Shown in pieces: positions 1-63,414 of a stretch of 64,000 bases of DNA. A program made the translations under genes and the position numbers. The stretch is from an uncultured Flavobacteriales bacterium (lineage in GTDB: Bacteria; Bacteroidota; Bacteroidia; CAIKAF01), in contig CAIKAF010000010.1 in the NCBI GenBank assembly GCA_903825395.1, forward strand, positions 16,700 through 80,699, given 5' to 3'. The notes beneath the pieces were generated by a model. The model saw only the letters and a list, made by a program, of their open reading frames with translations. It did not search any database and was not told where the DNA came from. Numbering within the stretch: the first letter of the stretch is position 1; every line of letters starts with the position of its first letter.

Positions 1-367
1 CGTTGGATTGAACCCCAATCCTCAATCCTTTGACCCTTCATTGGAGTGGGATTCTATTCCTGAGGATGCATTTGACAGCTTGGGATTTCATGCCTGCGAC
101 TGCAATTTCATGAGCTTAGAGAATGCGCCAGAGGCCTTTACCAAGATTTCTCCAAATCCAACCGACAAAGTATTGAATGTGCGTTCTGAGTTGACCATGC
201 AAACGATTTTGGTGAAAAACCTGGCGGGACAAGTGGTGCTGCAACCGCAGACAGTAAACGGGCTGCAAAGTCAAATTCAATTGGGCAATCTGCCTCCGGC
301 GATGTACCTGCTTGAAATATACTATCAAGGTGGCTTGGTGCGGAGTCAGCGGTTTTCCAAACGGTAA
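1..367 (+). CDS. 3' fragment of a secreted protein ending in a T9SS (Por) C-terminal sorting domain; 5' end lies outside the window
   Basis: The ORF is open to the window edge. The C-terminal ~70 aa (KVLNVRSEL...ILVKNLAGQVV...MYLLEIYYQGGLVRSQRFSK) has the typical beta-sandwich T9SS CTD pattern. Confidence 0.5.
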   Translation, partial: VGLNPNPQSFDPSLEWDSIPEDAFDSLGFHACDCNFMSLENAPEAFTKISPNPTDKVLNVRSELTMQTILVKNLAGQVVLQPQTVNGLQSQIQLGNLPPAMYLLEIYYQGGLVRSQRFSKR

Positions 368-373
368 TCGAAG

Positions 374-3178
374 ATGCGGCAATTTGCCCTCTGTTTGGTC
401 CTGATTCTTGCGGGAGCCCCGCCGGCTTCGCTTAAGGCCCAACAGCATGTGCTGAGTGGTCTGATTACAGATTCCATTTCGGGAGAGCCCCTGTTGGGTG
501 CGGCGGTGATGTATGCGCCAGGAAAAGGCGTTACAGCCGATTTGGAAGGCCGATTTTGGTTGAGTTTGCCGGCAGGAACCCATACCTTGGAAATTCGATT
601 TTTGGGCTATGATTCCAAAGAAATAAAGGTGCAAGTTCCAAGAGCCGCCGAATTGCACCTGCGCATGTCGGAATCAAAAGGCCATTCCTTACAGGAGTTT
701 CAACTGGTTTCTGATTTGGCGAAGCCGCGGGAAACGCCGGTGGCATACAGCAATGTATCTGCTCAACAGATTACAGAAAAATTAGGAGGACAGGACCTGC
801 CCATGCTGTTAAACGCCACGCCCGGTGTCTATGCTACCCAACAGGGCGGAGGCGATGGAGATGCTCGAATCAGCATCCGTGGATTCAGCGCCCAGAATGT
901 ACTGGTGATGGTGGACGGAGTGCCCATGAACGACATGTTCAATGGGCGAGTGTATTGGACCAATTGGTTTGGCTTGGATCAAATGACCCAAACCGTGCAG
1001 GTGCAACGTGGATTGGGGGCATCAAAACTCGCTATCCCGGCCATTGGTGGCACCATGAATATCATGACCAGGGGCATTCAGATGAATAAAAGCCTAAGCA
1101 TCAAGCAAGAACTGGGCAACGATCAGAATTTACGCACGGTTGTTTCCGGCTCTACAGGAAGGCTGAACGGCGATTGGAGCCTTCAGGCTGCCCTTTCTTA
1201 CAAAAACAACCGGGGATGGGTTGAAGGCCTGTCTTCGCAGATGTTTTTCTATTTCCTGAAAATCAACAAGGAAGTGAAAAACCATGCTTTTTCCTTTTCT
1301 GCTTTTGGGGCTCCACAGGAAAGTGGGCAACGGAGTTTTTTGTATGCACAACAAATTCAAGATTTAGATGCCAATCTGGCCCATTCCTTGGGCATTGACA
1401 CCAGCAATTCAATAGCAAGGGGGAATCGGTTTTATTCCGGTTGGAATGAGTTTGTGCGGACCCGTTCCGGCAACCGCCAACAGGATTCACTTTACGCAAG
1501 CGGAGCCATTACGCTGGAGCAGCACATGGCTCAAAACAACCTGCAGCGGGAACGCATGACCACCACGGTGAATGGATTTCATAAGCCGGTCATGACCTTT
1601 CAACACAGCTGGAAAGCCAGCAAAAACTGGTACCTAAAGAACATCGCCTATGCCAGCTTTGGATCGGGAGGAGGAAGCAGCATGGTGAACGATGGGGGGA
1701 GTACGATATCCGTAAACGACAGTACCGGCAAGATTAAATTACAGGAGCTGTATGACTTTAACATTTCTGGCCTGAAGACCGGTCAAGAAACCTTAGTCAG
1801 CAGGTATATTCTACGTAAAGACCATAACGACCATTCTTGGTATGGATTTTTAAGCACCGTAGAGGGGAAATTGCCCTTGGGGTTAACATTTTCAGGTGGT
1901 ATTGACGGCCGATACTACAATGGTCGAGTGTACAGCACCGTTTTAGATTTAATGGGCGGAGACGTTTTCAAAGTGCAAGGCCAACCCAATCAAAACCGGG
2001 CGGCAGAACCCTTGATTCGCGTGGGCGACACATTGCGTCAGCACATTGAACGCGATATTTTGTGGGGAGGAGCATTTGGTATGCTCGAATTTAAAGGAGA
2101 AAAACTAACGGCATTTGTAAACCTGAGCGGATCGGTAAGCGGATACAAACAATACAATCATTTTTTAAAACGTCAGCTGACGGTTGGCGACACGGTTTTA
2201 AATATTGGATTTTCCGACACCTTGCAGTTCCAGGGAAACATCTACACCCGAAGCAGCCCCGGTTTGCGCTCCAATTCTTCCGACCAAGTTTGGGCCTTTG
2301 GATATACCGTAAAGGGAGGAGCCAACTACAATCTGACCAAACGGCACAACGTGTATGCCAATGTAGGGTATTTTAGTCGGGTTCCCTATTTCACCTTTTT
2401 AATCACCACCGCCAACCGTTTGGTCAAAGAAACACTGAACGAGGAATTGTACAGTGCCGAACTGGGATATGGATATAGAAGCAAGAAATTTGCCCTGCAA
2501 GCGAATGCCTACTACACTCTTTGGAACAACAAGCCAACCGCTGTTTCATTTACCATAGACGGAGAAGCCGTTCGGGCCTTGGCCGGCGATATGGGAGCAC
2601 GGCACATGGGGCTGGAACTTGATTTCACTTGGAAGCCCTGGAAGTTTTTAAGCGTTGAAGGGATGGCTTCGTTGGGCGACTGGATTTGGAACAAGCAAGC
2701 TCGTGCTCAAATTATAGACGAAAGCGACGCCATCGTTGACGAAGTTGTATTTGATCCCAGAGGAGTAAAGGTCGGAGATGCCGCCCAGCATACCTACTCT
2801 CTGAGTACCCGCTGGATGCCCATAAAGCGCCTGTACATCATGCCTGAATTCCAGTATTTTAGTCAAAACTACGCCAACTTCGACCCATCGGTGTATCAGG
2901 TTACAGACATCCCCTCTGGTTTTGGGCCCAACTTGGGGCGACAAGCCTGGCGGATGCCCGATTATTATTTGTTGAATCTGTATGCGGGCTATCATTTTTA
3001 TATAAAAGACCGCAGAATTGATCTTCGGGGCAGCCTGTACAACATCACCGATTTGTCCTACATCAGCGATGCGAGCGACAACAATGCGGGCTCTGTTGAC
3101 ACCTTCAATGCCGCCTCGGCAACCGTATATGCCGGACTTGGATTTCGCTGGATGTTTTCTGTAACTGCTACATTTTAA
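374..3178 (+). CDS. TonB-dependent outer-membrane receptor (CarbopepD_reg N-terminal domain + plug + 22-strand barrel)
   Basis: Signal peptide MRQFALCLVLILAG. The LSGLITDSISGEPLLGAAVMY carboxypeptidase-regulatory-like motif, a plug region (DGVPMND) and a C-terminal aromatic barrel end (WMFSVTATF). 934 aa. Confidence 0.8.
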   Translation: MRQFALCLVLILAGAPPASLKAQQHVLSGLITDSISGEPLLGAAVMYAPGKGVTADLEGRFWLSLPAGTHTLEIRFLGYDSKEIKVQVPRAAELHLRMSESKGHSLQEFQLVSDLAKPRETPVAYSNVSAQQITEKLGGQDLPMLLNATPGVYATQQGGGDGDARISIRGFSAQNVLVMVDGVPMNDMFNGRVYWTNWFGLDQMTQTVQVQRGLGASKLAIPAIGGTMNIMTRGIQMNKSLSIKQELGNDQNLRTVVSGSTGRLNGDWSLQAALSYKNNRGWVEGLSSQMFFYFLKINKEVKNHAFSFSAFGAPQESGQRSFLYAQQIQDLDANLAHSLGIDTSNSIARGNRFYSGWNEFVRTRSGNRQQDSLYASGAITLEQHMAQNNLQRERMTTTVNGFHKPVMTFQHSWKASKNWYLKNIAYASFGSGGGSSMVNDGGSTISVNDSTGKIKLQELYDFNISGLKTGQETLVSRYILRKDHNDHSWYGFLSTVEGKLPLGLTFSGGIDGRYYNGRVYSTVLDLMGGDVFKVQGQPNQNRAAEPLIRVGDTLRQHIERDILWGGAFGMLEFKGEKLTAFVNLSGSVSGYKQYNHFLKRQLTVGDTVLNIGFSDTLQFQGNIYTRSSPGLRSNSSDQVWAFGYTVKGGANYNLTKRHNVYANVGYFSRVPYFTFLITTANRLVKETLNEELYSAELGYGYRSKKFALQANAYYTLWNNKPTAVSFTIDGEAVRALAGDMGARHMGLELDFTWKPWKFLSVEGMASLGDWIWNKQARAQIIDESDAIVDEVVFDPRGVKVGDAAQHTYSLSTRWMPIKRLYIMPEFQYFSQNYANFDPSVYQVTDIPSGFGPNLGRQAWRMPDYYLLNLYAGYHFYIKDRRIDLRGSLYNITDLSYISDASDNNAGSVDTFNAASATVYAGLGFRWMFSVTATF

Positions 3179-3181
3179 TGT

Positions 3182-3616
3182 ATGAGAATTTTCTTCGTTG
3201 TTGGCCTTCTGTTCTCCTTGTTTTCGGGGTGTGCCGAGGAAGTCGCCATGGAAAAATTACAAGGCCGCTGGGGGGCTCAATCGGTGGTACATCCCGATTC
3301 AAGCTGGACATTGAAGCTGGATACCTGTGGATTGGAAATCATGTTTTTTCCTTGCAGTCAGCCCTATACCGCCACGTGTTTCCTTGAAATGCGGGAGCAA
3401 GGTATGGGGGGGCATGTTTGGGTTGACACCCTTGGGTACACCATTAAAGGGGATGAATTGGCCTTTGTAGATGGGTCGGTGAAATCAAAATCTGTTTTTT
3501 CAAATACGCTTTTTAGGCTGCGGCGTTTTCGCTGGAGCATCCACGAGGAAATGCATTTGGATTTAAAGCGCATAGACACGTCGATTATCGAATTTCGCTT
3601 TTCAAAATTGGAATAG
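3182..3616 (+). CDS. hypothetical lipoprotein
   Basis: Lipoprotein-type signal (LLFSLFSGC). No recognisable domain. Starts 4 nt after the receptor stop. Confidence 0.4.
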   Translation: MRIFFVVGLLFSLFSGCAEEVAMEKLQGRWGAQSVVHPDSSWTLKLDTCGLEIMFFPCSQPYTATCFLEMREQGMGGHVWVDTLGYTIKGDELAFVDGSVKSKSVFSNTLFRLRRFRWSIHEEMHLDLKRIDTSIIEFRFSKLE

Positions 3617-3728
3617 TGTTTGTGCGGCAGGAATCTTCGGTAGCGTTCCAAGATTGGTTCCGGATTCTTCTTGCCGCTCTTGAGCAGGATCAATACAACC
3701 CATAAATTGCAGGTACTTTAATAGGCAT

Positions 3729-4421
3729 ATGTTGGCGAAGATGTTTTTGGACGTATTTAGGCTGTTTTTCTGCGGAGCTTGGCGAAGGGGGTTTGCCAAA
3801 TCTGTTTTTGCTTTCAGTTTACTGATGGTGGCGGGGCTGCCTCCGTTGAGGGCTCAGCCAATGAACGAGTCCTTTTTGCGGCAGGCCAAAGCCTATCCGG
3901 CAGAGGGAGGCTATGTTTGGTCAAGCACAGGATGTCCAGAGGCCCTGGTTCGGGGAACCGATACCTTGCTGCGCAAAAGCAAGGCGGGCACCTATTGCTC
4001 GGGGTTTACCTTTGCGGTTTTTTTCAAGGTCATGAACGACCGCGGCTCCTTCGATTCATTGAACATGGCCGATTTAAAAAGCATACAACAAGATTGGTAT
4101 GGGAATACGGCTCCTTCTGCCGAGCGGCAATGTGTATATGTTATGGAAAAATGGAATCTGGGATCGCAAATAGAAATGGAACATGCGCGCCCGGGAGATT
4201 TCATTCAATTTTGGAGGAACAACAATACCGGACATTCTGCCTTGTTTTTGGGCTGGATCAGGGATGAATCCGGCACAATTACCGGGTTAAAATATCGAAG
4301 TTCACAACGGCCTACCAATGGCATTGGGGAACGAACAGAACCGATAGGTTCCGCAAGCCGATCCCTAAACCCCAAACGAATTTATTTGGGTCGAATCGGG
4401 GCAGGGTTCCCGGCCCCGTAG
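3729..4421 (+). CDS. putative NlpC/P60-like (papain-fold) cysteine peptidase/amidase, secreted
   Basis: N-terminal hydrophobic segment. Cys motif TYCSGFTFAVF and a downstream GDFIQFW...GHSALFLGW resemble the NlpC/P60 Cys and His signature blocks. Motif-level only. Confidence 0.35.
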   Translation: MLAKMFLDVFRLFFCGAWRRGFAKSVFAFSLLMVAGLPPLRAQPMNESFLRQAKAYPAEGGYVWSSTGCPEALVRGTDTLLRKSKAGTYCSGFTFAVFFKVMNDRGSFDSLNMADLKSIQQDWYGNTAPSAERQCVYVMEKWNLGSQIEMEHARPGDFIQFWRNNNTGHSALFLGWIRDESGTITGLKYRSSQRPTNGIGERTEPIGSASRSLNPKRIYLGRIGAGFPAP

Positions 4422-4704
4422 AGCCAAGGCACGCCGTGGTTCTGCAAAAACGACGAATGGGGGAGGGGGCCCGTAGAGCCAAGGCACGCCTTGGCTCCCC
4501 CAAAAAACAACGAATGTGGCGGATCAGCAGAGCCAAGGCACGCCGTGGTTCTACAAAAACGACGAATGGGGGAGGGGGCCCGTAGAGCCAAGGCACGCCG
4601 TGGTTCCACAATGGCGGATTTTGTATTTCCGGTGAGCCAAGGCGCGCCGTGGTTCCACAATGGCGGATTTTGTATTTCCGGTGAGCCAAGGCATGCCTTG
4701 GCTC
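4421..4704. repeat. tandem array of 6 copies of a 22-bp (near-)palindromic unit GAGCCAAGGCACGCC(G/T)TGG(T/C)TC, spaced 49-55 bp
   Basis: Units start at 4421, 4476, 4530, 4585, 4634 and 4683. Units 2 and 6 are perfect 9+4+9 palindromes. The inter-unit spacers themselves repeat (spacer 1 = 3, spacer 4 = 5). Confidence 0.85.
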
Positions 4705-4730
4705 TACAAACGTTTCAATTTGTACCTTCA

Positions 4731-5294
4731 ATGCCTCAATTCATCCAAATGCTACGATGCATCCCTTTTGTTTTATTCAGCCTAATTACGGGGACGAGTG
4801 TTGCTCAAGGAAGCCTTCAGTTCAACCAGGTTTTGTGGCTCGATAACAGCAATAGCCCATATACCGTACCCGCGGGTAAGGTGTGGAAGATTACCCAAAA
4901 CAGCTATGGTACGCGTCATTTTTTGTCATCAACAAGCACGTTTTCTGTAACCTGGTCAAACACCAACCCCAACCCCTGCACAGGGGCCACTTCTGGAAGC
5001 TCTACGGCAATCGCAGTCAATTACAGCTCCTGCGGCGGAGTTAATTGGCCAACGGCGAATGGACACCAACTGGGGCAAGGTTCCGGACTTGTAACTTGGC
5101 TGCCCGCAGGAACCACAGTGGAGGTGCCCGCCACCCCTTGTTTTCATTCTGCTTCGGCAAACATTGGCTCAAATGTGGTGTACAGAGACAACCGCACCTC
5201 CTCATATATTTGCCAACCCCTTCAAATCAGCTCGGGTTCGTCGGTGCTGAATTCCAATGTGTTGTCTATTGTCGAATTTAACATTATCCCCTAA
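4731..5294 (+). CDS. hypothetical secreted protein (Ser/Thr/Asn-rich, beta-rich)
   Basis: Signal peptide (MLRCIPFVLFSLITGTSVAQG). Its stop overlaps the ATG of the next gene (TAATG), implying co-transcription. Confidence 0.45.
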   Translation: MPQFIQMLRCIPFVLFSLITGTSVAQGSLQFNQVLWLDNSNSPYTVPAGKVWKITQNSYGTRHFLSSTSTFSVTWSNTNPNPCTGATSGSSTAIAVNYSSCGGVNWPTANGHQLGQGSGLVTWLPAGTTVEVPATPCFHSASANIGSNVVYRDNRTSSYICQPLQISSGSSVLNSNVLSIVEFNIIP

Positions 5295-6085
5295 TGCGCA
5301 TCCTTTTCATTTGTGTTCTCACCGTTTTAAATTTGTCCGTATTTGCACAAGGCGTACGGATTGGGCCCAACCCTGCGCCAGCGGATTCCAGTGCCGGCCT
5401 TGATGTGGATTTTCCGGATCGGGGATTTTTACCCCCGCGCCTTAGCACCCAACAGCGCAATGCCATTGTGAACCCGGCGGCGGGATTGTTGGTATACAAT
5501 ACCAGTACGCAGTGCTTGGAATTGCATCTTCCACAGGGAGGTTGGCAGGCGGTATTGTGCGATTGCCAAAATCCTCCAAATCCAACCATTTCTGTCAACA
5601 GCACCTCGGCGGGCACCAACTCTTCCGTTGCATTTGCTGCGGCTCAGCCCGGAACCATCGCCTCGTATTCTTGGTCGTTCCAAAGCGGCAATCCCTCTAC
5701 TTCCAGTTCGGCCAATCCCAGTGTGTCTTGGTCGCAAGCCGGAACCTATTGGGTGTACCTTACCGCCTACAACAGCATTGGCTGCAGCGAAAAGGATTCC
5801 CTCCAAATGACCATCAGTGCCGGAATTACCGTGAATACCTTCAATTATTTTCAGCCCGGACAAGAGTACCTAATACGCACCAGTCAGTACGGTTGGCCCA
5901 TGACCGACCAGCAAACCGCCGATTGTTTTTGTCAGGCGATTGGCTACGCTTCGGCTCAGAGTTTTCAGATTGCCTATCCATCAACCACCAATTGTTTTGG
6001 ATACGAACCCAATTGCAATTACCATTCTACCTGGTGTAGCGGCACAACAAATCGCCACGTCATAACCACGGTAACCTGTCAATAA
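5294..6085 (+). CDS. secreted protein of a paralogous family: shared ~75-aa N-terminal module + PKD-like domain + Cys-rich C-terminus
   Basis: Signal peptide. The N-terminal block PAPADSSAGLDV...GFLPPRLSTQQRNAIVNPAAGLLVYNTSTQCLE is shared with the proteins at 49099 and 50419. It also has a PKD-like SYSWSF...SVSWSQAGTYWVYLTAYNSIGC block. Confidence 0.55.
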   Translation: MRILFICVLTVLNLSVFAQGVRIGPNPAPADSSAGLDVDFPDRGFLPPRLSTQQRNAIVNPAAGLLVYNTSTQCLELHLPQGGWQAVLCDCQNPPNPTISVNSTSAGTNSSVAFAAAQPGTIASYSWSFQSGNPSTSSSANPSVSWSQAGTYWVYLTAYNSIGCSEKDSLQMTISAGITVNTFNYFQPGQEYLIRTSQYGWPMTDQQTADCFCQAIGYASAQSFQIAYPSTTNCFGYEPNCNYHSTWCSGTTNRHVITTVTCQ

Positions 6086-6104
6086 AATTCAGATATTCCA
6101 AGGT

Positions 6105-7469
6105 ATGCACATTCATTTTATAGCCATCGGTGGAGCCGCTATGCACACCTTGGCTCTGGCACTCAAAAAAGAAGGCCATGAAATTTCCGGGTCGGACGAT
6201 GAAATTTTTGAGCCCTCTCGCTCTCGATTGGCGGCCGCCAACCTGCTTCCCGAGCAAGAAGGGTGGTTCCCGGAACGGATACATGCCGGCATTGATGTTG
6301 TGGTGTTGGGGATGCATGCCAAGGCCGACAATCCGGAGTTGATTCGGGCGGAAGCCTTAGGTTTGACCATTCAATCGTATCCGGCCTTTTTTAAAGAATA
6401 TACCAAACATAAAACCAGAGTGGTAGTGGGCGGTAGCCATGGAAAAACCACCACCACATCCATGATCATACATGGTCTGCAGGCGCAAGGGGTTCCGTTT
6501 GACTGTCTGGTTGGAGCAAGCATTCCCGGTATTGAGTCTCCGGTGATGTTCGACCCCAACGCCACCTTGGCCATCATTGAAGGAGATGAATATTTGGCTT
6601 CTGCTCGTCAGCCCATTCCGAAGTTTCATGTCTATCAAGGTCATATTGGTGTCATTACCGGAATCGCCTGGGATCATGTAAATGTGTTTAAAACCATGGC
6701 CGATTACCAACGGCAGTTCGAATTGTTCATTGATACCTTGGTGCCCAACGGCCATCTTATTTATTGCCTGGAAGATTCGATTTTAAAAGAAATGGTGGAA
6801 CAGCATCCCCGAACCGACATACAGCGGCACGGATATTCTACCTTGGCCTACACCTACCAACAGCATACGGCCATCGTTCAGCATCAGGGCAGAGAATATC
6901 CGGTTGGAATTCAAGGTCGCCACAACATGCAAAATCTAGCGGCAGCATGCGTGGTGAATCGATTGCTGGGGGGCTCGGAAGAGAAATTTTTGCAATCCAT
7001 GGTGAATTTTCGTGGCGCCTCAAAGCGAATGGAAGTTTGGGGGCAAAAGCCACAGCACAACTTCTTGGCCATCAAGGATTTTGCCCATAGTCCTTCCAAG
7101 GTGAAAGCAACAGTGCAGGCGGTGCGCGAGGCCTACCCGAACCACCGTTTGCTCGCCATGCTCGAATTGCACACCTACAGCAGTCTGAGTCGGGATTTTT
7201 TGCCGGAATATCAGGGGGTGTTTCAGGGGGCCGACGACTTGGCTGTATTGTATGATCCACATGCCTTGGTCATCAAGCGACTGCCCGTCTTAAATGCGCA
7301 GGAAGTGGCAGATTCTATGGGGATTTCGAGCGGGAAGGTGTTTTCCGATCCCACCGTTTGGGCCAAATTTGTGCAGAGCCAGCCACGGGAAGACTCGGTT
7401 TTTCTGTGCATGAGCAGTGGAAATTGGGGCGCGGTTGATATGGCGGGGTGTATGGATATTGATGGTTGA
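6105..7469 (+). CDS. mpl: Mur-ligase family enzyme, Mpl-like (UDP-N-acetylmuramate:L-Ala-gamma-D-Glu-meso-DAP ligase) or MurC-like
   Basis: N-terminus IHFIAIGGAAMHTLALAL. The GGSHGKTTTTSMI P-loop is typical of Mur ligases. ~454 aa fits Mpl. Confidence 0.65.
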   Translation: MHIHFIAIGGAAMHTLALALKKEGHEISGSDDEIFEPSRSRLAAANLLPEQEGWFPERIHAGIDVVVLGMHAKADNPELIRAEALGLTIQSYPAFFKEYTKHKTRVVVGGSHGKTTTTSMIIHGLQAQGVPFDCLVGASIPGIESPVMFDPNATLAIIEGDEYLASARQPIPKFHVYQGHIGVITGIAWDHVNVFKTMADYQRQFELFIDTLVPNGHLIYCLEDSILKEMVEQHPRTDIQRHGYSTLAYTYQQHTAIVQHQGREYPVGIQGRHNMQNLAAACVVNRLLGGSEEKFLQSMVNFRGASKRMEVWGQKPQHNFLAIKDFAHSPSKVKATVQAVREAYPNHRLLAMLELHTYSSLSRDFLPEYQGVFQGADDLAVLYDPHALVIKRLPVLNAQEVADSMGISSGKVFSDPTVWAKFVQSQPREDSVFLCMSSGNWGAVDMAGCMDIDG

Positions 7470-7475
7470 GGGGTT

Positions 7476-7796
7476 GCAGCCCTTTGCGGTAAAAAACAGG
7501 TTCAGGCATTACTGCCAACTTTTACCACAGAGGCCGCCAAGGGAGCCGCAAAGTTTCACAAAGGTTTGGGGCGGAATGAGGGCGCACGCGTTTTGACTAC
7601 ATCCCCTCTGCGCCCTTTGCGCCGACATTGCGCCCTTTGCGGTAAAAATCCCTGGTTCAGGAATTTCTGCCAATTTTTACCACAGAGGCCGCCACGGCAG
7701 CCGCAAAGTTTCACAAAGGTTTGGGGTGGAACGAGAGCGCCCTCGTTTTGCCCACATCCCCTCTGCGCACTTTGCGCCGACATTGCGCCCTTTGCG
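7476..7796 (+). repeat. dispersed repeat family 1: two tandem ~155-bp units (7489-7641, 7642-7796) plus a partial leading fragment
   Basis: Unit ...ccacagaggccgccaagggagccgcaaagtttcacaaaggtttgggg...ctctgcgccctttgcgccgacattgcgccctttgcggtaaaaa. Recurs at 8555, 27355(-), 27915(-) and 37783. Confidence 0.8.
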
Positions 7797-7858
7797 GTAA
7801 AAAACGAAAGACCCCCAATTTTTGGTCTCAAGAGGATTTTTACTCTAGGAACTTCAGA

Positions 7859-8554: not shown

Positions 8555-8752
8555 TTTTACCACAAAGCCCACCAAGGGAGCCGCAAAGTTTCACAAAGGT
8601 TTGGGGTGGAATGAGGGCGCACGCGTTTTGACTACATCCCCTCTGCGCCCTTTGCGCCGACATTGCGCCCGTTGCGGTAAAAAAACCTGGTTCAGGAATT
8701 TCTGCCAATTTTTACCACAGAGGCAGCCAAGGCAGCCGCAAAGTTTCACAAA
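8555..8752 (+). repeat. dispersed repeat family 1, ~1.3 units
   Basis: Near-identical to 7489-7796 (accaagggagccgcaaagtttcacaaaggtttggggtggaatgagggcgcacgcg...). With 7476-7796 it forms direct repeats that flank the vapBC cassette. Confidence 0.8.
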
Positions 8753-8771
8753 GAGAGAATTGAAATCCCCC

Positions 8772-11228: not shown

Positions 11229-11312
11229 GCAAACTAAACGAGGAAACAGGGGATTTGGTTTTAACCTCCCAGAGAATGGTCATCGCGGAAAGGAGAAGAC
11301 GTTGGATAATTT

Positions 11313-11460
11313 GGGCGGCTGCGGGCTTTCACCGGTAGTCCGCGGTGGCCGGGCGGGCTGTTGCCGGGCTGCGGTGGCTCCCAAGGTCGCCTCCTCGCCG
11401 CGGCACAGCTGCCGCCGGCCCCCTTGCGGGCAACCGGGTTCAATCCCTGCCGCGGGCGGC
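11313..11460 (+). repeat. GC-rich dispersed element, copy A (somewhat diverged)
   Basis: gggcggctgcgggctttcaccggtagtccgcggtggcc...ctcccaaggtcgcctcc...gggcaaccgggttcaatccctgccgcgggc. Homologous to the copies at 39831, 44437, 56876, 58428, 62991 and 63271. Confidence 0.8.
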
Positions 11461-27602: not shown

Positions 27603-27639
27603 GGCGTAAATTTTACAATAGCATTGTAAAATTTACGCC
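27603..27639. promoter_or_regulatory. perfect 17-bp/3-nt-loop palindrome ggcgtaaattttacaat-agc-attgtaaaatttacgcc in the ~880-bp leader upstream of the pyrimidine-catabolism cluster; operator or terminator
   Basis: Perfect inverted repeat, read directly. Followed by attttatgtg. Sits between the two family-1 repeat copies. Confidence 0.5.
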
Positions 27640-27914: not shown

Positions 27915-28004
27915 GGGTGTGTTGTGTCGCTAGAGGGCTCGTGGCTCCTTTGCGAACATTGCGGCTTCCTTTGCGGCCTTTGTGTTAAAAATTGGCGGTT
28001 AGGC
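27915..28004 (-). repeat. dispersed repeat family 1, partial copy (reverse orientation)
   Basis: gctcgtggctcctttgcgaacattgcggcttcctttgcggcc...ggcggttaggcc is near-identical to 27440-27509. Confidence 0.6.
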
Positions 28005-28259
28005 CTATTAATTGCTTTTGATGGAGTCGAGCTGTTAAAACCCGAAAAGCGCTATAAATGGATGTAAACACTCCTACCTCCCCGATTCCCCCCGCCGGGT
28101 AAGATTTCATAGATTTTTGGAAGACCCTAAAAAACACTGATTTACAGATACTTAACCGATTCGCTCCGGCAAAGCCCGTTGCGTTTCAGTTCTTTTGTAA
28201 TAACTTGTCCTTTTAAAACCTTAAACCGCGGCGAAACCCCGCCAAATTTGTACAAAACT

Positions 28260-37753: not shown

Positions 37754-37782
37754 TTTTTGAGTGTGGTTAAGGCTTGACTGCC

Positions 37783-37920
37783 TTTTTTTACCACCAAGGC
37801 CGCCAAGGGAGCCGCAATGTTCCCAAAGGAGCCTCCAAACTCTTGCACACCCTCGCTGTAACTACATTCCCTCTGTGCCCTTTGCGCCGACATTGAGTCC
37901 TTTGTGGTAAAAAACAGGTT
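37783..37920 (+). repeat. dispersed repeat family 1
   Basis: tttttaccaccaaggccgccaagggagccgcaatgttcccaaaggagcc...ctctgtgccctttgcgccgacattgagtcctttgtggtaaaaaacagg. Lies between convergent preA and the PNP gene. Confidence 0.7.
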
Positions 37921-37939
37921 CCGGCTTCAATGCCACTGT

Positions 37940-38767
37940 TTATTTCGCTTCTTGTGCCAAGCGCAAGCCACCCAAAATGATTTCCGACATGGTTTTTCCG
38001 GCGGTTTCGGCCGCATTTAAAACGTCTTGCAATACTACCTTGCGTATTCGGCCCGGCACTCCCAAATCGGTGATGGCAGAAAAACCGGAACACCCTATTC
38101 CCATGTGCCGAGCAGCCAACACTTCGGGTACTGTAGACATGCCCACGGCGTCTGCGCCAATGGTTCGTATCCATCGGTATTCTGCCGGTGTTTCCAGAGC
38201 TGGGCCCTTCAGGGCAGCATACACTCCCTCATGCATTTTTGTGTTTAAGTGTTGGGCCGCCTGTCTGAAATATCCGGCCCAAGTAGCATCATAGGAATCG
38301 TGCATGTCTGGAAACCTGGGGCCCAATTGCTCAATATTGGGTCCCGACAAGGGGGAGTCTCCCAGCAAATTCAAATGGTCGGTAATCATCATCACTTCGC
38401 CCACTTCCATATCTGGATTCACTCCGCCTGCGGCGTTGGTCACCACCAAATGGGTTATCCCCAACATTCCCATCACCCGAATTGGGAATACCACCTGAGC
38501 CAACGAATAGCCTTCATAGTAATGAAAGCGCCCTTTCATTCCCAACACCTTAAACCCTTGGATTGTTCCCGCATGCAATTCGCCGGCATGGCTTTGAACT
38601 GTACTTGTTGGAAAATGGGGTATTGCAGAATAGGGAATTCGTTGGGCGTCTTTCATTTCTTTCATCAGTTGGCCCAAACCGGTTCCTAGAACCAAGCCAA
38701 TTTCGGGCTGAAATCCTTGCAATTCCTTCTTAAGAAAGTTTGCGGCTTCGTTCAATTCTGTCCACAT
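37940..38767 (-). CDS. purine nucleoside phosphorylase (PNP/MTAP family)
   Basis: 275 aa. The GTGLGQL, HFPTSTVQSHAGEL and AVGMSTVPEV blocks are typical of PNP-I. Confidence 0.75.
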   Translation of the reverse strand: MWTELNEAANFLKKELQGFQPEIGLVLGTGLGQLMKEMKDAQRIPYSAIPHFPTSTVQSHAGELHAGTIQGFKVLGMKGRFHYYEGYSLAQVVFPIRVMGMLGITHLVVTNAAGGVNPDMEVGEVMMITDHLNLLGDSPLSGPNIEQLGPRFPDMHDSYDATWAGYFRQAAQHLNTKMHEGVYAALKGPALETPAEYRWIRTIGADAVGMSTVPEVLAARHMGIGCSGFSAITDLGVPGRIRKVVLQDVLNAAETAGKTMSEIILGGLRLAQEAK

Positions 38768-39830: not shown

Positions 39831-39985
39831 CGCCGCCCGCGGCAGGGATTGAAGAGGGTAGGACGCCAGTGTGCCGGAGCCTGGCCCGCGAGGCGCGGAG
39901 GCGACCTTGGGAGCCCCCGCAAGCCCGCTGGGCCAGCCTTCCGGCACCGGCGGACTAGCCCTGAAAGCCCGCCCGCCGCCCCCCC
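39831..39985 (-). repeat. GC-rich dispersed element, copy B (reverse orientation)
   Basis: cccgcggcagggattgaag...gcggaggcgaccttgggagcccccgcaagcccgctgggccagcc...gaaagcccgcccgccgccccc. Confidence 0.8.
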
Positions 39986-44427: not shown

Positions 44428-44436
44428 GAGGGGTAT

Positions 44437-44586
44437 TCGGGCGGCAGCCGGGCTTTCAGGGGTAGTCTGCCCTTGCCGAAAGGCGGGCCCAGCGGGCTTG
44501 CGGGGGCTCCTAAAGTCGCCTCCGCGCCGCGCGGGCCCGGCTTCGGCAACGGGCAGAGCTACCCTCTTCAATCCCTGCCGCGGGCC
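44437..44586 (+). repeat. GC-rich dispersed element, copy C
   Basis: gggcggcagccgggctttcaggggtagtc...gcgggcccagcgggcttgcgggggctcctaaagtcgcctccgcgccgcgcgggcccggc...caatccctgccgcgggcc. Overlaps the last ~6 codons of menD. Confidence 0.8.
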
Positions 44587-56751: not shown

Positions 56752-56875
56752 AGGGTTGGCAGGTTAGTGAGGTCGATTTCCATCTAGGTCGCAAAATATT
56801 GATTTTTCCTTTCTTATCCCCCTCCATTTTTTAGGGTGAATCATTGATTTGGATAGGTTCTTTTCTGTTTTTTCT

Positions 56876-57025
56876 TGGGCGGCTGCGGGCTTTCGTGGGT
56901 AGTCCGCGGTGGGCGGAAGTCTGGCCCAGCGGGCTTGCGGGGGCTCCCAAGGTCGCCTCCGCGCCACGCGGGCCAGGCTCCGCCCACCTTGCGGGCAACC
57001 CTACTCAATCCCTGCCGCAGGGCCC
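56876..57025 (+). repeat. GC-rich dispersed element, copy D
   Basis: gggcggctgcgggctttcgtgggtagtccgcggtgggcggaagtctggcccagcgggcttgcgggggctcccaaggtcgcctccgcgccacgcgggccaggctcc...caatccctgccgcagggcc. Confidence 0.8.
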
Positions 57026-57114
57026 CCTCCTACCTAGGCTCTCCATATTGATTTTTCATCCACAACAGCGAATTTCAGCTTAGCCTACTCAGCCAACCCG
57101 CCTATGGCCTATCT

Positions 57115-57360
57115 TTGGGTGTGATTTTCATTGGCAACCTTCCTTATGCCTTCACTGAACAGGAGCTTAAAGACCTGTTTAGTCCGTTTGGCGAGGCCCA
57201 ATCGGTTCAGTTGATTCGGGACCGAATTTCGGGCCGAAGCCGCGGATTTGGGTTTGTAGACCTGAGCAATTCACAGCAAGAAATTGCTGCCATCGAGGCC
57301 CTGCAGGGCCTCGAATTGGAAGGAAGAACCATTCGAATAAGCAAGAAGCACCATGAATAG
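57115..57360 (+). CDS. RRM-type RNA-binding protein
   Basis: RNP-2 (IFIGNLPY) and RNP-1 (RGFGFVDL) motifs. 81 aa. Confidence 0.7.
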   Translation: MGVIFIGNLPYAFTEQELKDLFSPFGEAQSVQLIRDRISGRSRGFGFVDLSNSQQEIAAIEALQGLELEGRTIRISKKHHE

Positions 57361-58427: not shown

Positions 58428-58573
58428 CCCGCGGCAGGGATTGAACCGGGTAGCACGCCAACGGGGCGGAGCCTGGCCCGCGTGGTGCGGAGGCGACTTT
58501 AGGAGCCACCGCAAGCCCGCTGGGCCAGCCTTCCGCCCTGTGCGGACTACCGGTGAAAGCCCGCAGCCGCCCC
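58428..58573 (-). repeat. GC-rich dispersed element, copy E (reverse orientation)
   Basis: cccgcggcagggattgaaccgggtagc...ggcgcggaggcgactttaggagccaccgcaagcccgctgggccagcc...ggtgaaagcccgcagccgccccc. Confidence 0.8.
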
Positions 58574-58592
58574 CATAAAAAACCAAATCCAT

Positions 58593-60484: not shown

Positions 60485-60720
60485 CAGACCTACGTGTCTG
60501 CCCCAAACGAGTCGAGGCCGCCAGGCCAGACCTACGTGTCTGCCCCAAACGAGTCGGGGCCGTCAGGGCACACCTAGGTGTCTGCCCCAAACGAGTCGAG
60601 GCCGCCAGGCCAGACCTACGTGTCTGCCCCAAACATGTCGAGGCCGCCGGGGCACACCTACGTGTCTGCCCCAAACCAAACGGGTGCCGTAGGCATACAC
60701 GGATTGGAGGGGCATATAAG
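60485..60720. repeat. tandem repeat, ~4.5 copies of a 40-44-bp unit with palindromic core cagacctacgtgtctg
   Basis: Units at 60485, 60527, 60571, 60611 and 60655 (partial), e.g. cagacctacgtgtctgccccaaacgagtcgaggccgccaggc. Lies between the fabD 3' end and the purF 5' end. Confidence 0.85.
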
Positions 60721-60743
60721 GCAGGGGGCATATACGGTGGACG

Positions 60744-60767
60744 GGGCACACACGAAGGTGTGCCCCT
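60744..60767 (-). terminator. GC-rich hairpin ggggcacacacgaaggtgtgcccc overlapping the fabD stop codon; possible terminator or structural element
   Basis: Perfect 9-bp stem with a 5-nt loop. There is no clean U-tract downstream on the minus strand. Confidence 0.3.
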
Positions 60768-62990: not shown

Positions 62991-63137
62991 GGGGGCGGCT
63001 ACGGGCTTTCACCGGTAGTCCGCGGTGGCCGGAAGGCTGGCCCAGCGGGCTTGCGTGGGCTCCCAAGGTCGCCTCCGCGCCGCGCGGGCCAGGCTCCGGC
63101 CCCTGGCGGGCTACCCGGTTCAATCCCTGCCGCTGGC
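62991..63137 (+). repeat. GC-rich dispersed element, copy F
   Basis: gggggcggctacgggctttcaccggtagtccgcggtggccggaaggctggcccagcgggcttgcgtgggctcccaaggtcgcctccgcgccgcgcgggccaggctccggcccctggcgggctacccggttcaatccctgccgctggcc. Confidence 0.8.
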
Positions 63138-63270: not shown

Positions 63271-63414
63271 CCCGCGGCAGGGATTGAGCCGGGTTGCCCG
63301 CAAGGGGGGCCTGGCGCTGCCCGCGTGGCGCGGAGGCGACCTTGGGAGCCACCGCAAGCCCGCTGGGCAGCCCAGTGCCCACCGCGGACAACCGGTGAAA
63401 GCCCGCAGCCGCCC
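63271..63414 (-). repeat. GC-rich dispersed element, copy G (reverse orientation; forms an inverted pair with copy F across a 133-bp AT-rich spacer)
   Basis: cccgcggcagggattgagccgggttgcccgcaagggggg...gcggaggcgaccttgggagccaccgcaagcccgctgggcagccc...ggtgaaagcccgcagccgccc. Confidence 0.8.

What the first reader, a model, noticed from the sequence alone, without database searches (positions are those of the whole stretch)
4421..4704. CRISPR-like but non-CRISPR array: six 22-bp palindromic units with recurring spacers in the promoter region of a secreted-protein operon
Units of GAGCCAAGGCACGCC(G/T)TGG(T/C)TC repeat every 49-55 bp. Two are perfect 9+4+9 palindromes. The 'spacers' are themselves duplicated (1 = 3, 4 = 5), which excludes CRISPR and indicates tandem duplication of about 55-bp and 49-bp super-units. 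The array ends 27 bp before the 4731 ATG and abuts the stop of the NlpC/P60-like gene. So it could be an array of regulator-binding hairpins (operator multimer), a transcriptional attenuator or a recombination site.
Basis: seen in the sequence. Interest (0 to 1): 0.55.

Follow-up and report, generated by a model that had tools for sequence, protein, structure and literature searches.

The report
Tandem cluster of REP hairpin repeats
The six-hairpin array is a local pile-up of a known kind of selfish palindromic repeat (a "double-foot" REP, the substrate of a RAYT/TnpA_REP transposase found in many bacteria), not a CRISPR or an operon-specific operator, so it is essentially ordinary.

Summary
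In detail: six 22-bp units at 4421-4704, spaced 55/54/55/49/49 bp, with recurring spacers, found nowhere else in the window. The true unit is a 28-bp palindrome, GTAGAGCCAAGGCATGCCTTGGCTCTAC. This exact sequence occurs at more than 100 unrelated intergenic sites in about 30 genome assemblies and 73 metagenome contigs, mostly Bacteroidota, including five separate loci in a 95-97% identical relative of the window's genome. Copies favour gene 3' ends (27 convergent, 31 tandem, 3 divergent spacers). In seven cases the palindrome abuts, flanks or lies in frame inside (peptide VEPRHALALQ) a Y1/HUH transposase gene with the motifs of TnpA_REP subclass 2.4 (RAYT group 4). "Double-foot" REPs inserted in the enzyme's own gene are the published hallmark of that subclass. 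The window array is therefore a cluster of partly decayed REPs amplified in place by tandem duplication. The relative has five units instead of six, lacking exactly one 55-bp unit, and other loci carry arrays with periods of 21-31 bp. An operator-multimer reading is not supported. Any effect on transcripts, as a 3'-UTR hairpin barrier, is inferred only. Novelty is low: a new member of a known kind.

The parts
4415..4710 (+). Whole REP cluster: six head-to-tail units, each a hairpin plus a ~27-33-nt tail, with periods of 55 and 49 bp
   Evidence: TRF 4415-4611 period 55 x3.6; 4585-4709 period 49 x2.6
4418..4445 (+). Unit 1: GTAG foot plus asymmetric stem variant (GAGCCAAGGCACGCCGTGGTTC) plus CTGC. 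The TAG of its GTAG foot (4419-4421) is the stop codon of the upstream gene
   Evidence: RNA dG -14.1
4473..4500 (+). Unit 2: GTAG foot plus perfect stem (GAGCCAAGGCACGCCTTGGCTC); 3' foot lost (CCCC)
   Evidence: dG -16.1
4527..4554 (+). Unit 3: GCAG foot, asymmetric stem variant, CTAC foot
4582..4609 (+). Unit 4: GTAG...CCAC feet, asymmetric stem variant. This unit and the preceding spacer (about 4553-4607) are absent from the relative L023
4631..4658 (+). Unit 5: GGTG foot, GCGC loop, asymmetric stem variant
4680..4707 (+). Unit 6: perfect 22-nt core (GAGCCAAGGCATGCCTTGGCTC), identical to the consensus seen across phyla, plus a CTAC foot
   Evidence: dG -16.3
3729..4421 (+). Upstream gene (230 aa, weak NlpC/P60 match below the Pfam cut-off). 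The array begins at its stop codon, so it lies in this gene's 3' region
4705..4750 (+). Leader conserved with the relative genome. It contains TCAATTTG (4715-4722), which resembles the Bacteroidetes -7 promoter box TAnnTTTG (inference from own knowledge of that consensus)
4751..5294 (+). Downstream secreted protein (signal peptide MLRCIPFVLFSLITGTSVAQG). This gene cassette is absent from the relative, where the PKD gene follows the same leader and ATG directly

Best explanation
The array is a cluster of 'double-foot' REP elements: a repetitive extragenic palindrome with a 5' GTAG foot and a 3' CTAC foot. This is the type associated with TnpA_REP subclass 2.4 (RAYT group 4) Y1/HUH transposases. 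Shown: the consensus element is GTAGAGCCAAGGCATGCCTTGGCTCTAC; it is dispersed at low copy number in many, mostly Bacteroidota, genomes; it sits mainly downstream of genes; it is physically linked to RAYT genes; and it often forms tandem arrays. Inferred: one copy landed (or was created) at the stop codon of the NlpC/P60-like gene. Then the hairpin plus ~30 nt of flank was amplified in situ by replication slippage or unequal recombination between hairpins, giving six partly decayed units. The asymmetric stem variant GAGCCAAGGCnnGCCGTGGTTC exists only in this array, which supports that route. Also inferred: the array is not a purpose-built regulatory device. Its most likely effect is incidental. 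If transcribed with the upstream gene, its stable hairpins (RNA dG -9.5 to -16 kcal/mol) would act as 3'-end barriers or insulators ahead of the downstream gene's own promoter-like leader. REP and BIME elements are known to do this in E. coli.
For: The core is exact at 45 non-chance loci in about 30 assemblies and at 73 metagenome loci, with unrelated flanks. GTA/TAC flanks and an AT loop were not part of the search pattern but are conserved (AT loop in 75 of 79 copies). There are five separate loci in MAG casp15-mb.160, which is 95-97% identical to the window. Positional bias: 27 convergent, 31 tandem and 3 divergent spacers against a background of 82, 248 and 79 (P = 1.6e-5 for convergent enrichment, 1.3e-3 for divergent depletion), with a median of 56 nt to a flanking stop codon. 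A RAYT gene is adjacent to or contains the palindrome in L010 (the isolate Runella limosa), L015, L053, L059 (twice), L072 and L084. That protein's only NCBIfam hit is 'REP-associated tyrosine transposase' (E 1e-11 to 1e-19) and its only significant PDB hit is 4ER8, TnpA_REP (E 1.2e-5). [quoted passage not shown] 7,252 homologues were found, several named RayT by their sources. In nearly all of the 103 listed members whose loop could be delimited, the same loop carries a related REP-encoded peptide such as VETRHALSLQ. Arrays of the same core with other periods occur at independent loci. Copy number differs by one unit between the window and its relative. [quoted passage not shown] RAYT group 4 occurs in few species but 17 bacterial classes, and is associated with only ~14 repeated 16-mers per replicon.
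Against: No RAYT gene lies in the 64-kb window or in the five loci of the relative MAG, so a cognate enzyme in this lineage is not shown. The window has only one locus carrying the element. None of the six units retains both feet and a perfect stem, so they may no longer be RAYT substrates. RAYT-driven mobility of this REP has never been tested, and the RAYT link rests on 7 of about 110 loci. The RAYT scores fall below NCBIfam's curated cut-off (44-70 bits versus 80) and are borderline for Pfam Y1_Tnp. Taxon labels of non-Bacteroidota hosts come from MAG record titles and were not verified (neither confirmed nor contradicted the Deinococcales label).
Confidence: 0.85

Rival explanations
1. Operator multimer: the six palindromes are binding sites for a dimeric transcription factor that controls the downstream secreted-protein genes.
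For: The units are 22-bp dyad symmetries next to a promoter-like leader. The last unit lies where a -33 promoter element would be expected (inference).
Against: The same palindrome lies at more than 100 unrelated sites, mostly at gene 3' ends, and is depleted from divergent, promoter-containing spacers. It even occurs inside coding sequence. Four of the six units carry a stem variant that breaks the dyad. The relative lacks both one unit and the first downstream gene, yet keeps the array.
Confidence: 0.03
2. Exapted RNA element: the array was recruited as a transcriptional attenuator, terminator or mRNA-stabilising 3' structure for the NlpC/P60-like gene. Its copy number is under selection, rather than the array being a neutral by-product.
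For: The stems are stable and the whole region folds better than shuffled versions (z = -4.9). The first hairpin starts at the stop codon. Elsewhere the same core is followed directly by a T-run, like an intrinsic terminator, in about 10 copies. The core stays 100% identical downstream of groEL in Bacteroidales whose flanking sequence has diverged. The G-T pair in the variant stem is tolerated only in + strand RNA or single-stranded DNA.
Against: No unit in the window is followed by a T-run (A-rich tails instead), and the terminator scan found nothing in the array. Copy number and loop bases drift between close relatives. No expression data are available.
Confidence: 0.2
3. Degenerate or orphan CRISPR array.
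For: Regularly spaced short palindromic repeats.
Against: The repeat is only 22 nt. The spacers are duplicated and homologous to one another. The repeat occurs mostly as single copies in genomes. None of the seven flanking genes examined encodes a Cas protein.
Confidence: 0.01
4. A RAYT-independent small mobile or self-generating palindrome. On this view the hairpin spreads or regenerates by another route (for example template switching at hairpins, or an unknown enzyme), and the RAYT genes are simply frequent targets of it.
For: Only 7 of about 110 loci show a RAYT. 12 of 46 GTA...TAC copies sit at the apex of longer locus-specific palindromes (P about 2e-23), which RAYT biology as published does not explain. 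Small hairpin elements of 21-27 nt nested in each other were described in cyanobacteria (Elhai et al. 2008, from my own knowledge, not retrieved here).
Against: In-gene, in-frame REPs at one fixed loop appear across the listed members of a clade of thousands of RAYTs. That is a specific, published signature of a cognate REP/RAYT pair, not of random targeting. GTAG feet are the RAYT guide motif.
Confidence: 0.07

Closest known systems
'Double-foot' REPs of TnpA_REP subclass 2.4 (Quentin et al. 2018, PMC6006769), equivalent to RAYT group 4 (Bertels et al. 2017, PMC5581495)
   Same: 5' GT[AG]G plus a palindrome plus 3' C[TC]AC. [quoted passage not shown] The enzyme motifs are NH[IFV]H, WQ and YIxNNP. 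Hosts are Bacteroidetes, Cyanobacteria and scattered phyla. Copy number per genome is low.
   Different: This exact sequence was not found in the searchable literature. In the window the copies are decayed and arranged as a six-unit head-to-tail array. No RAYT was seen in this lineage's available DNA.
GTAG-tagged REP superfamily and REP clusters (Di Nocera et al. 2013, PMC3733652)
   Same: GTAG tag. The TAG of the tag serves as the stop codon of the neighbouring ORF. Location between convergent or unidirectional genes. G-T pairs in stems. Clusters made of units reiterated in tandem together with flanking DNA.
   Different: There the tag is unpaired and present at one end only, whereas here it is mirrored at both ends and pairs. 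Head-to-tail arrangements were rare in that survey.
E. coli BIMEs (REP/iREP mosaics, substrates of TnpA_REP; PMC3333891, PMC8266576)
   Same: Tandem REP-plus-linker units whose copy number varies between strains. Intergenic position at 3' ends. Proposed attenuator or mRNA-stabiliser side effects.
   Different: BIMEs alternate REP orientation with defined linkers. Here all asymmetric units point the same way, and the REP itself is symmetric.
CRISPR arrays
   Same: Short palindromic repeats at regular spacing.
   Different: 22-nt repeat, duplicated and mutually homologous spacers, no cas genes among the neighbours examined, and a repeat that is mostly solitary elsewhere.
Small dispersed repeats (SDR) of Nostoc (Elhai et al. 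2008, Genome Res; own knowledge, not retrieved)
   Same: Mobile hairpins of 21-27 nt that nest within other palindromes and tandem repeats.
   Different: Different sequences and hosts. No enzyme was assigned to SDRs, whereas this element has a RAYT link.

Membership tests
REP (GTAG type, double-foot; TnpA_REP subclass 2.4 / RAYT group 4) | Palindrome of 20-50 nt directly preceded by GT[AG]G | tested here: met
   The consensus is GTAG+AGCCAAGGCATGCCTTGGCT+CTAC. The three bases before the 22-mer core are GTA in 50 of 79 metagenome copies, although they were not in the search pattern. In the window, units 1, 2 and 4 keep GTAG, unit 3 has GCAG, and units 5 and 6 have GGTG.
REP (GTAG type, double-foot; TnpA_REP subclass 2.4 / RAYT group 4) | Mirror foot C[TC]AC at the 3' end ('double foot') | tested here: met
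   TAC follows the core in 42 of 79 metagenome copies. In the window, units 3 and 6 have CTAC, unit 4 has CCAC, and the rest are degenerate.
REP (GTAG type, double-foot; TnpA_REP subclass 2.4 / RAYT group 4) | Several dispersed, mostly extragenic copies within one genome | tested here: met
   Five loci in MAG casp15-mb.160, the relative of the window, and nine loci in MAG ABC2.109. Almost all copies are intergenic. Caveat: only one locus lies in the 64-kb window itself, and the complete genome was not available.
REP (GTAG type, double-foot; TnpA_REP subclass 2.4 / RAYT group 4) | Preference for the 3' ends of genes (convergent or unidirectional spacers) | tested here: met
   27 convergent, 31 tandem and 3 divergent spacers against a background of 82, 248 and 79 (P = 1.6e-5 and 1.3e-3). 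Median distance to a stop codon is 56 nt.
REP (GTAG type, double-foot; TnpA_REP subclass 2.4 / RAYT group 4) | [quoted passage not shown] | tested here: met
   Seen in L010, L015, L053, L059 (twice), L072 and L084. VEPRHALALQ is encoded by the 28-mer. The motifs are NH[IV]H, WQ and YIxNNP, with hits to NF047646 and PDB 4ER8. Not shown for the window's own genome.
REP (GTAG type, double-foot; TnpA_REP subclass 2.4 / RAYT group 4) | Binding and cleavage of the single-stranded hairpin by the cognate RAYT | not testable with these tools
   Needs biochemistry of the kind done for E. coli, S. maltophilia and Marinomonas REPtrons.
BIME (E. coli type) | REPs in alternating (inverted) orientation separated by defined linkers | tested here: not met
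   All four asymmetric units have the same orientation. The array is head-to-tail.
CRISPR | Unique spacers of foreign origin between identical repeats of about 23-48 nt | tested here: not met
   Spacers 4 and 5 are identical, spacers 1 and 3 differ by one base, and all spacers are homologous to each other. The repeat is 22 nt.
CRISPR | Adjacent cas genes | tested here: not met
   The seven neighbouring ORFs are a TonB-dependent receptor, two with no Pfam match, a weak NlpC/P60 match, a PKD protein, a Mur ligase and an Lhr helicase. The rest of the window was not annotated.
Operator array of a local regulator | Motif confined to promoters of a regulon | tested here: not met
   The motif is scattered at unrelated gene 3' ends in many genomes and depleted in divergent spacers.

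The most novel reading that the evidence does not exclude
The 28-nt core behaves as a self-templating palindrome. Three observations point this way. 26% of GTA...TAC copies lie exactly at the apex of longer, locus-specific perfect palindromes of up to 23 further bp. The core stays 100% identical at orthologous sites whose flanks have diverged. Between close relatives, nearly all changes fall on the two central loop bases. One reading is that the HUH enzyme nicks at one foot and the hairpin is recopied from its own arm, as in rolling-hairpin replication. That would create the 'double foot', extend the palindrome outwards and homogenise the arms, and this mode of REP propagation has not been described. 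The alternative is that the element inserts preferentially into the loops of existing hairpins. Identity of the 28-mer across phyla would then reflect recent inter-phylum spread of one REPtron.
Probability: 0.2. Interest if true: 0.55.

Novelty: new member of a known kind. Interest (0 to 1): 0.22.

Why it matters
The main value is for annotation. Arrays like this in Bacteroidota can be mistaken for CRISPRs, operators or riboswitch-like leaders, and they create spurious ORFs (for example 4312-4731 and 4382-4660 on the - strand). Recognising them as RAYT-type REP clusters avoids that. REPs are little studied outside Proteobacteria. This case gives a concrete REP/RAYT pair in Bacteroidota, with an exact 28-mer, in-gene copies, array formation and copy-number variation. 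The pair could be used to test how subclass-2.4 enzymes propagate their hairpins.

Tried and rejected
Rfam at gathering thresholds over the whole window found nothing. A permissive scan of 4300-4800 gave only sub-threshold snoRNA and miRNA noise. The exact 28-mer is absent from 2.9 million viral contigs. In plasmids only 86-96% identical variants were found, all in Cytophagia-type Bacteroidota. A literature search for the sequence string found nothing. My first two motif screens for Y1 transposases found nothing because I required the HuH motif within 110 residues of the Y motif, and the in-gene REP insertion pushes it further away. Clustering of neighbouring ORFs then found the gene. An adapter or assembly artefact was considered, because the core sits at the centre of palindromes and near contig ends. 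I rejected it because palindromy stops after 4-23 bp, variants and arrays exist, isolate genomes (Runella limosa, Lewinella sp. W8) carry the element, and orthologous sites from independent studies share it. Six one-strand matches in high-GC genomes lie inside long ORFs and were discarded as chance. L053 was tested as a possible circular or terminally redundant contig, but its ends are only 63% identical, so it is not. An attempt to verify the 'Deinococcales' MAG label from gene content was inconclusive. The sigma-70 promoter and terminator scan of 3600-5400 was uninformative.

Full report
OBSERVATION. Six units matching GAGCCAAGGC(A/G)(C/T)GCC(G/T)TGG(T/C)TC start at 4421, 4476, 4530, 4585, 4634 and 4683, spaced 55, 54, 55, 49 and 49 bp. 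With up to three mismatches the motif occurs nowhere else in the 64-kb window, and none of 100 shuffles gave a match. Units 2 and 6 are perfect palindromes. Spacers 4 and 5 are identical, and spacers 1 and 3 differ at one base. The three spacer types are recognisably homologous, so the array is a single tandem repeat of a ~50-55-bp unit (hairpin plus tail) that has diverged. The upstream ORF 3729-4421 has only a weak NlpC/P60 match, below the Pfam cut-off. It ends in a TAG at 4419-4421 that overlaps the first unit.

THE UNIT IS LARGER AND IS NOT LOCAL. A scan of one genome per species (185,579 species) for GAGCCAAGGCNNGCCKTGGYTC returned 51 loci. Six are one-strand, non-palindromic matches inside long ORFs of high-GC genomes and are chance hits. 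The other 45 are perfect palindromes, nearly all with an AT loop and GTA...TAC flanks that were not part of the search pattern. The real element is therefore GTAGAGCCAAGGCATGCCTTGGCTCTAC. Flanking sequences are unrelated. By record title, the hosts are mostly Bacteroidota: Bacteroidales, Chitinophagales, Cytophagales, Flavobacteriales, and the isolates Runella limosa DSM 17973 and Lewinella sp. W8. There are also MAGs labelled Deinococcales (nine loci), Mariprofundaceae, Cloacimonadota, Desulfovibrionales and others. I could not verify those labels. A metagenome scan added 73 loci, with an AT loop in 75 of 79 copies. The 28-mer is absent from viral contigs, only variants occur on Bacteroidota plasmids, and the sequence string is not in the searchable literature.

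THE RELATIVE GENOME. Locus L023 (MAG 'Bacteroidetes bacterium casp15-mb.160') is collinear with window 1-7803 at 95-97% identity and carries the same array. It has five units, lacking exactly one 55-bp unit (window ~4553-4607). Five of the six substitutions inside shared units fall on the two central loop bases (Fisher P = 1.2e-5). The same MAG has the perfect core at four other, unrelated loci (L016, L042, L046, L049). The asymmetric stem variant GAGCCAAGGCnnGCCGTGGTTC, present in four of the six window units, occurs only in this array, so it was amplified in place. The gene after the array also differs. The 46-nt leader 4705-4750 and an ATG (4751) are shared. In the window that ATG opens a 181-aa secreted protein that the relative lacks, and in the relative the PKD protein (window 5294-6085) follows directly.

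POSITION RELATIVE TO GENES. Among 61 classifiable spacers that hold the palindrome, 27 are convergent, 31 tandem and 3 divergent. The background in the same loci is 82, 248 and 79 (P = 1.6e-5 for convergent enrichment and 1.3e-3 for divergent depletion). The median distance to a flanking stop codon is 56 nt, against 120 nt to a flanking start codon. This is the distribution published for REPs, not for operators. About ten copies are followed directly by a T-run, like an intrinsic terminator. In several Bacteroidales the element lies at an orthologous site downstream of groES-groEL. There the core is 100% identical while the flanks have diverged.

THE ASSOCIATED ENZYME. Clustering the ORFs of all 124 loci showed one small protein that abuts or overlaps the palindrome in five unrelated contigs. 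It has the motifs MPNH(I/V)HGI, WQxRFYD and YIxNNP. Its Pfam Y1_Tnp scores are borderline. Its only NCBIfam hit is 'REP-associated tyrosine transposase' (E 1e-11 to 1e-19, below the curated cut-off), and its only significant PDB hit is 4ER8, E. coli TnpA_REP. [quoted passage not shown] In L053 two copies flank the gene. In L059 the GTAG foot supplies the stop codon, and a second RAYT gene begins after a second copy. In Runella limosa (L010) the gene ends 12 nt before the palindrome. A database search found 7,252 homologues (E <= 1e-10). Several are named 'REP element-mobilizing transposase RayT' by their sources. In nearly all of the 103 listed members whose loop could be delimited, the same loop holds a related peptide (VETRHALSLQ, VETGHALSL, VQTEHALSL and similar). 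These peptides are translations of sister GTAG...CTAC palindromes. The T-to-P and S-to-A differences from our version correspond to a compensatory change in the stem.

COMPARISON WITH WHAT IS KNOWN. Quentin et al. 2018 (PMC6006769) define TnpA_Y1 subclass 2.4 by the motifs NH[IFV]H, WQ and YIxNNP. They describe 'double foot' REPs (5' GT[AG]G and 3' C[TC]AC) and, as a unique feature, REPs inserted in frame within the tnpA_REP gene between HuH and Y. [quoted passage not shown] It equals RAYT group 4 of Bertels et al. 2017 (PMC5581495), found in 61 species across 17 classes, with flanking 16-mers repeated only about 14 times per replicon. That fits the low copy number and wide host range seen here. 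Di Nocera et al. 2013 (PMC3733652) report that GTAG REP termini often supply the TAG stop codon of the adjacent ORF. [quoted passage not shown] Both statements describe the window array. Arrays of the same core with periods of 21, 26, 28 and 31 bp occur at independent loci (L016, L095, L103, L108, L118), so forming arrays is a habit of the element and not a design of this operon. E. coli-type BIME membership fails because the units do not alternate in orientation. CRISPR membership fails on repeat length, spacer uniqueness and the absence of Cas proteins among the neighbours examined.

MECHANISM. Shown: identity of the element, its dispersal, its 3'-end bias, its RAYT linkage, its tendency to form arrays, and copy-number variation by one unit. 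Inferred: one REP was placed at the stop codon of the NlpC/P60-like gene, followed by slippage or unequal recombination between hairpins. That first spread a ~55-bp unit and then a 49-bp derivative, with decay of the feet and of two stem positions. None of the six units now has both feet and a perfect stem, so the array is probably an inactive relic as far as transposition is concerned. Also inferred: if the array is co-transcribed with the upstream gene, its hairpins (RNA dG -9.5 to -16.3 kcal/mol; region z-score -4.9) would form 3' structures that slow exonucleases or partly insulate the downstream unit. That unit has its own conserved leader containing a box similar to the Bacteroidetes -7 promoter element (4715-4722). 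The consensus for that box is from my own knowledge. No T-runs follow the hairpins, and the terminator scan found nothing in the array, so classical intrinsic termination is unlikely.

WHAT REMAINS ODD. Twelve of 46 GTA...TAC copies continue as perfect palindromes for at least 5 more bp, and up to 23 bp (L120), using locus-specific sequence (binomial P about 2e-23). One of these (L015) lies inside the RAYT coding region, so insertion into terminator loops cannot be the whole answer. At one orthologous pair (L063 versus L081) the outer flanks are homologous, but the 4-6 nt next to the core differ and are palindromic in one of them. Two readings remain open: the element grows outwards (by template switching or hairpin-templated resynthesis after HUH nicking), or it prefers hairpin loops as targets. 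I could not decide between them.

VERDICT. This is a new sequence member of a described REP/RAYT class, so interest is low.

Noticed in passing
window 11310-11453(+), 39839-39981(-), 44436-44581(+), 56871-57026(+), 58431-58581(-), 62993-63133(+), 63274-63414(-); also L029:730-884, L046:2342-2498, L049:7344-7510: A GC-rich, non-coding repeat of ~145 nt occurs seven times in the 64-kb window and also in other Bacteroidota MAGs. It folds as one long hairpin of 51 predicted pairs, 19 with compensatory changes across 10 copies. Its ends (GGGCGGCTGCGGGCTTTCA...TTCAATCCCTGCCGC) and apex (GGCTCCCAAGGTCGCC) are conserved. It has no real Rfam match: the plant miRNA hits only reflect two inverted copies. 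It is a candidate MITE/REPIN-like element or structured RNA, and possibly more interesting than the assigned finding.
   Followed up: partly
L015, L030, L036, L056, L060, L075, L080, L082, L112, L114, L119, L120 (core positions as listed): The REP core sits exactly at the centre of longer, locus-specific perfect palindromes (8-23 extra bp) in 12 of 46 GTA...TAC copies, where about 0.2% would be expected by chance. Published REP/RAYT descriptions do not explain this. Candidates are insertion into hairpin loops or outward growth of the palindrome.
   Followed up: partly
window 4421-4704 versus L023:3163-3400: Between the two 95-97% identical genomes, five of the six substitutions inside shared REP units hit the two central loop bases (CATG, CACG, CCTG, GCGC). 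This suggests the hairpins are extruded and their loops are mutation-prone.
   Followed up: partly
window 4751-5323 versus L023:~3082-3101: A gene-cassette difference. A 181-aa secreted protein (no Pfam match) is present in the window and absent from the relative. The upstream leader and the ATG are retained, so in the relative the PKD-domain gene uses them directly. The signal-peptide region of the PKD gene is much more diverged than its surroundings.
   Followed up: partly
L012, L019, L022, L028, L031, L051, L070, L122 (downstream of groEL): In several Bacteroidales the same REP lies at an orthologous site between groES-groEL and a gene encoding a translational GTPase (GTP_EFTU domain). The 22-28-nt core is 100% identical although the flanking intergenic sequence has diverged beyond alignment on one side. 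This implies selection on the core or its repeated renewal.
   Followed up: partly
window 60485-60676 and 60743-60766: A second hairpin-plus-spacer tandem array: 42 bp x 4.6, with the hairpin TTGGGGCAGACCTACGTGTCTGCCCCAA. A related solitary hairpin, GGGGCACACACGAAGGTGTGCCCC, lies nearby. This is probably another REP-like family that also forms arrays.
   Followed up: no
window 7474-7805 (related pieces at 8555-8766, 27947-28006, 37765-37942): A 155-bp tandem repeat (x2.2) lies directly after the Mur-ligase gene and contains motifs such as TTGCGCCCTTTGCGGTAAAAA. Diverged copies occur elsewhere in the window and in L023.
   Followed up: no
L053:162-1385: A 1.5-kb metagenome contig in which a RAYT gene (346-1035, - strand) is bracketed by two direct copies of the palindrome (loop variant AG), whose immediate flanks (about 40 nt on each side) are nearly identical. 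This is a compact REPtron-like unit. The contig is not terminally redundant (ends 63% identical).
   Followed up: partly
window 27603-27639 and 57293-57314: Two further strong palindromes: a hairpin with a 17-bp perfect stem (GGCGTAAATTTTACAATAGCATTGTAAAATTTACGCC) and a 22-nt perfect palindrome (TCGAGGCCCTGCAGGGCCTCGA).
   Followed up: no
L059:1088-5241: A type I restriction R-subunit gene (hsdR, 1760-4987) is bracketed by two REP copies, each next to a RAYT gene or gene fragment. The REPs provide or abut the stop codons.
   Followed up: no
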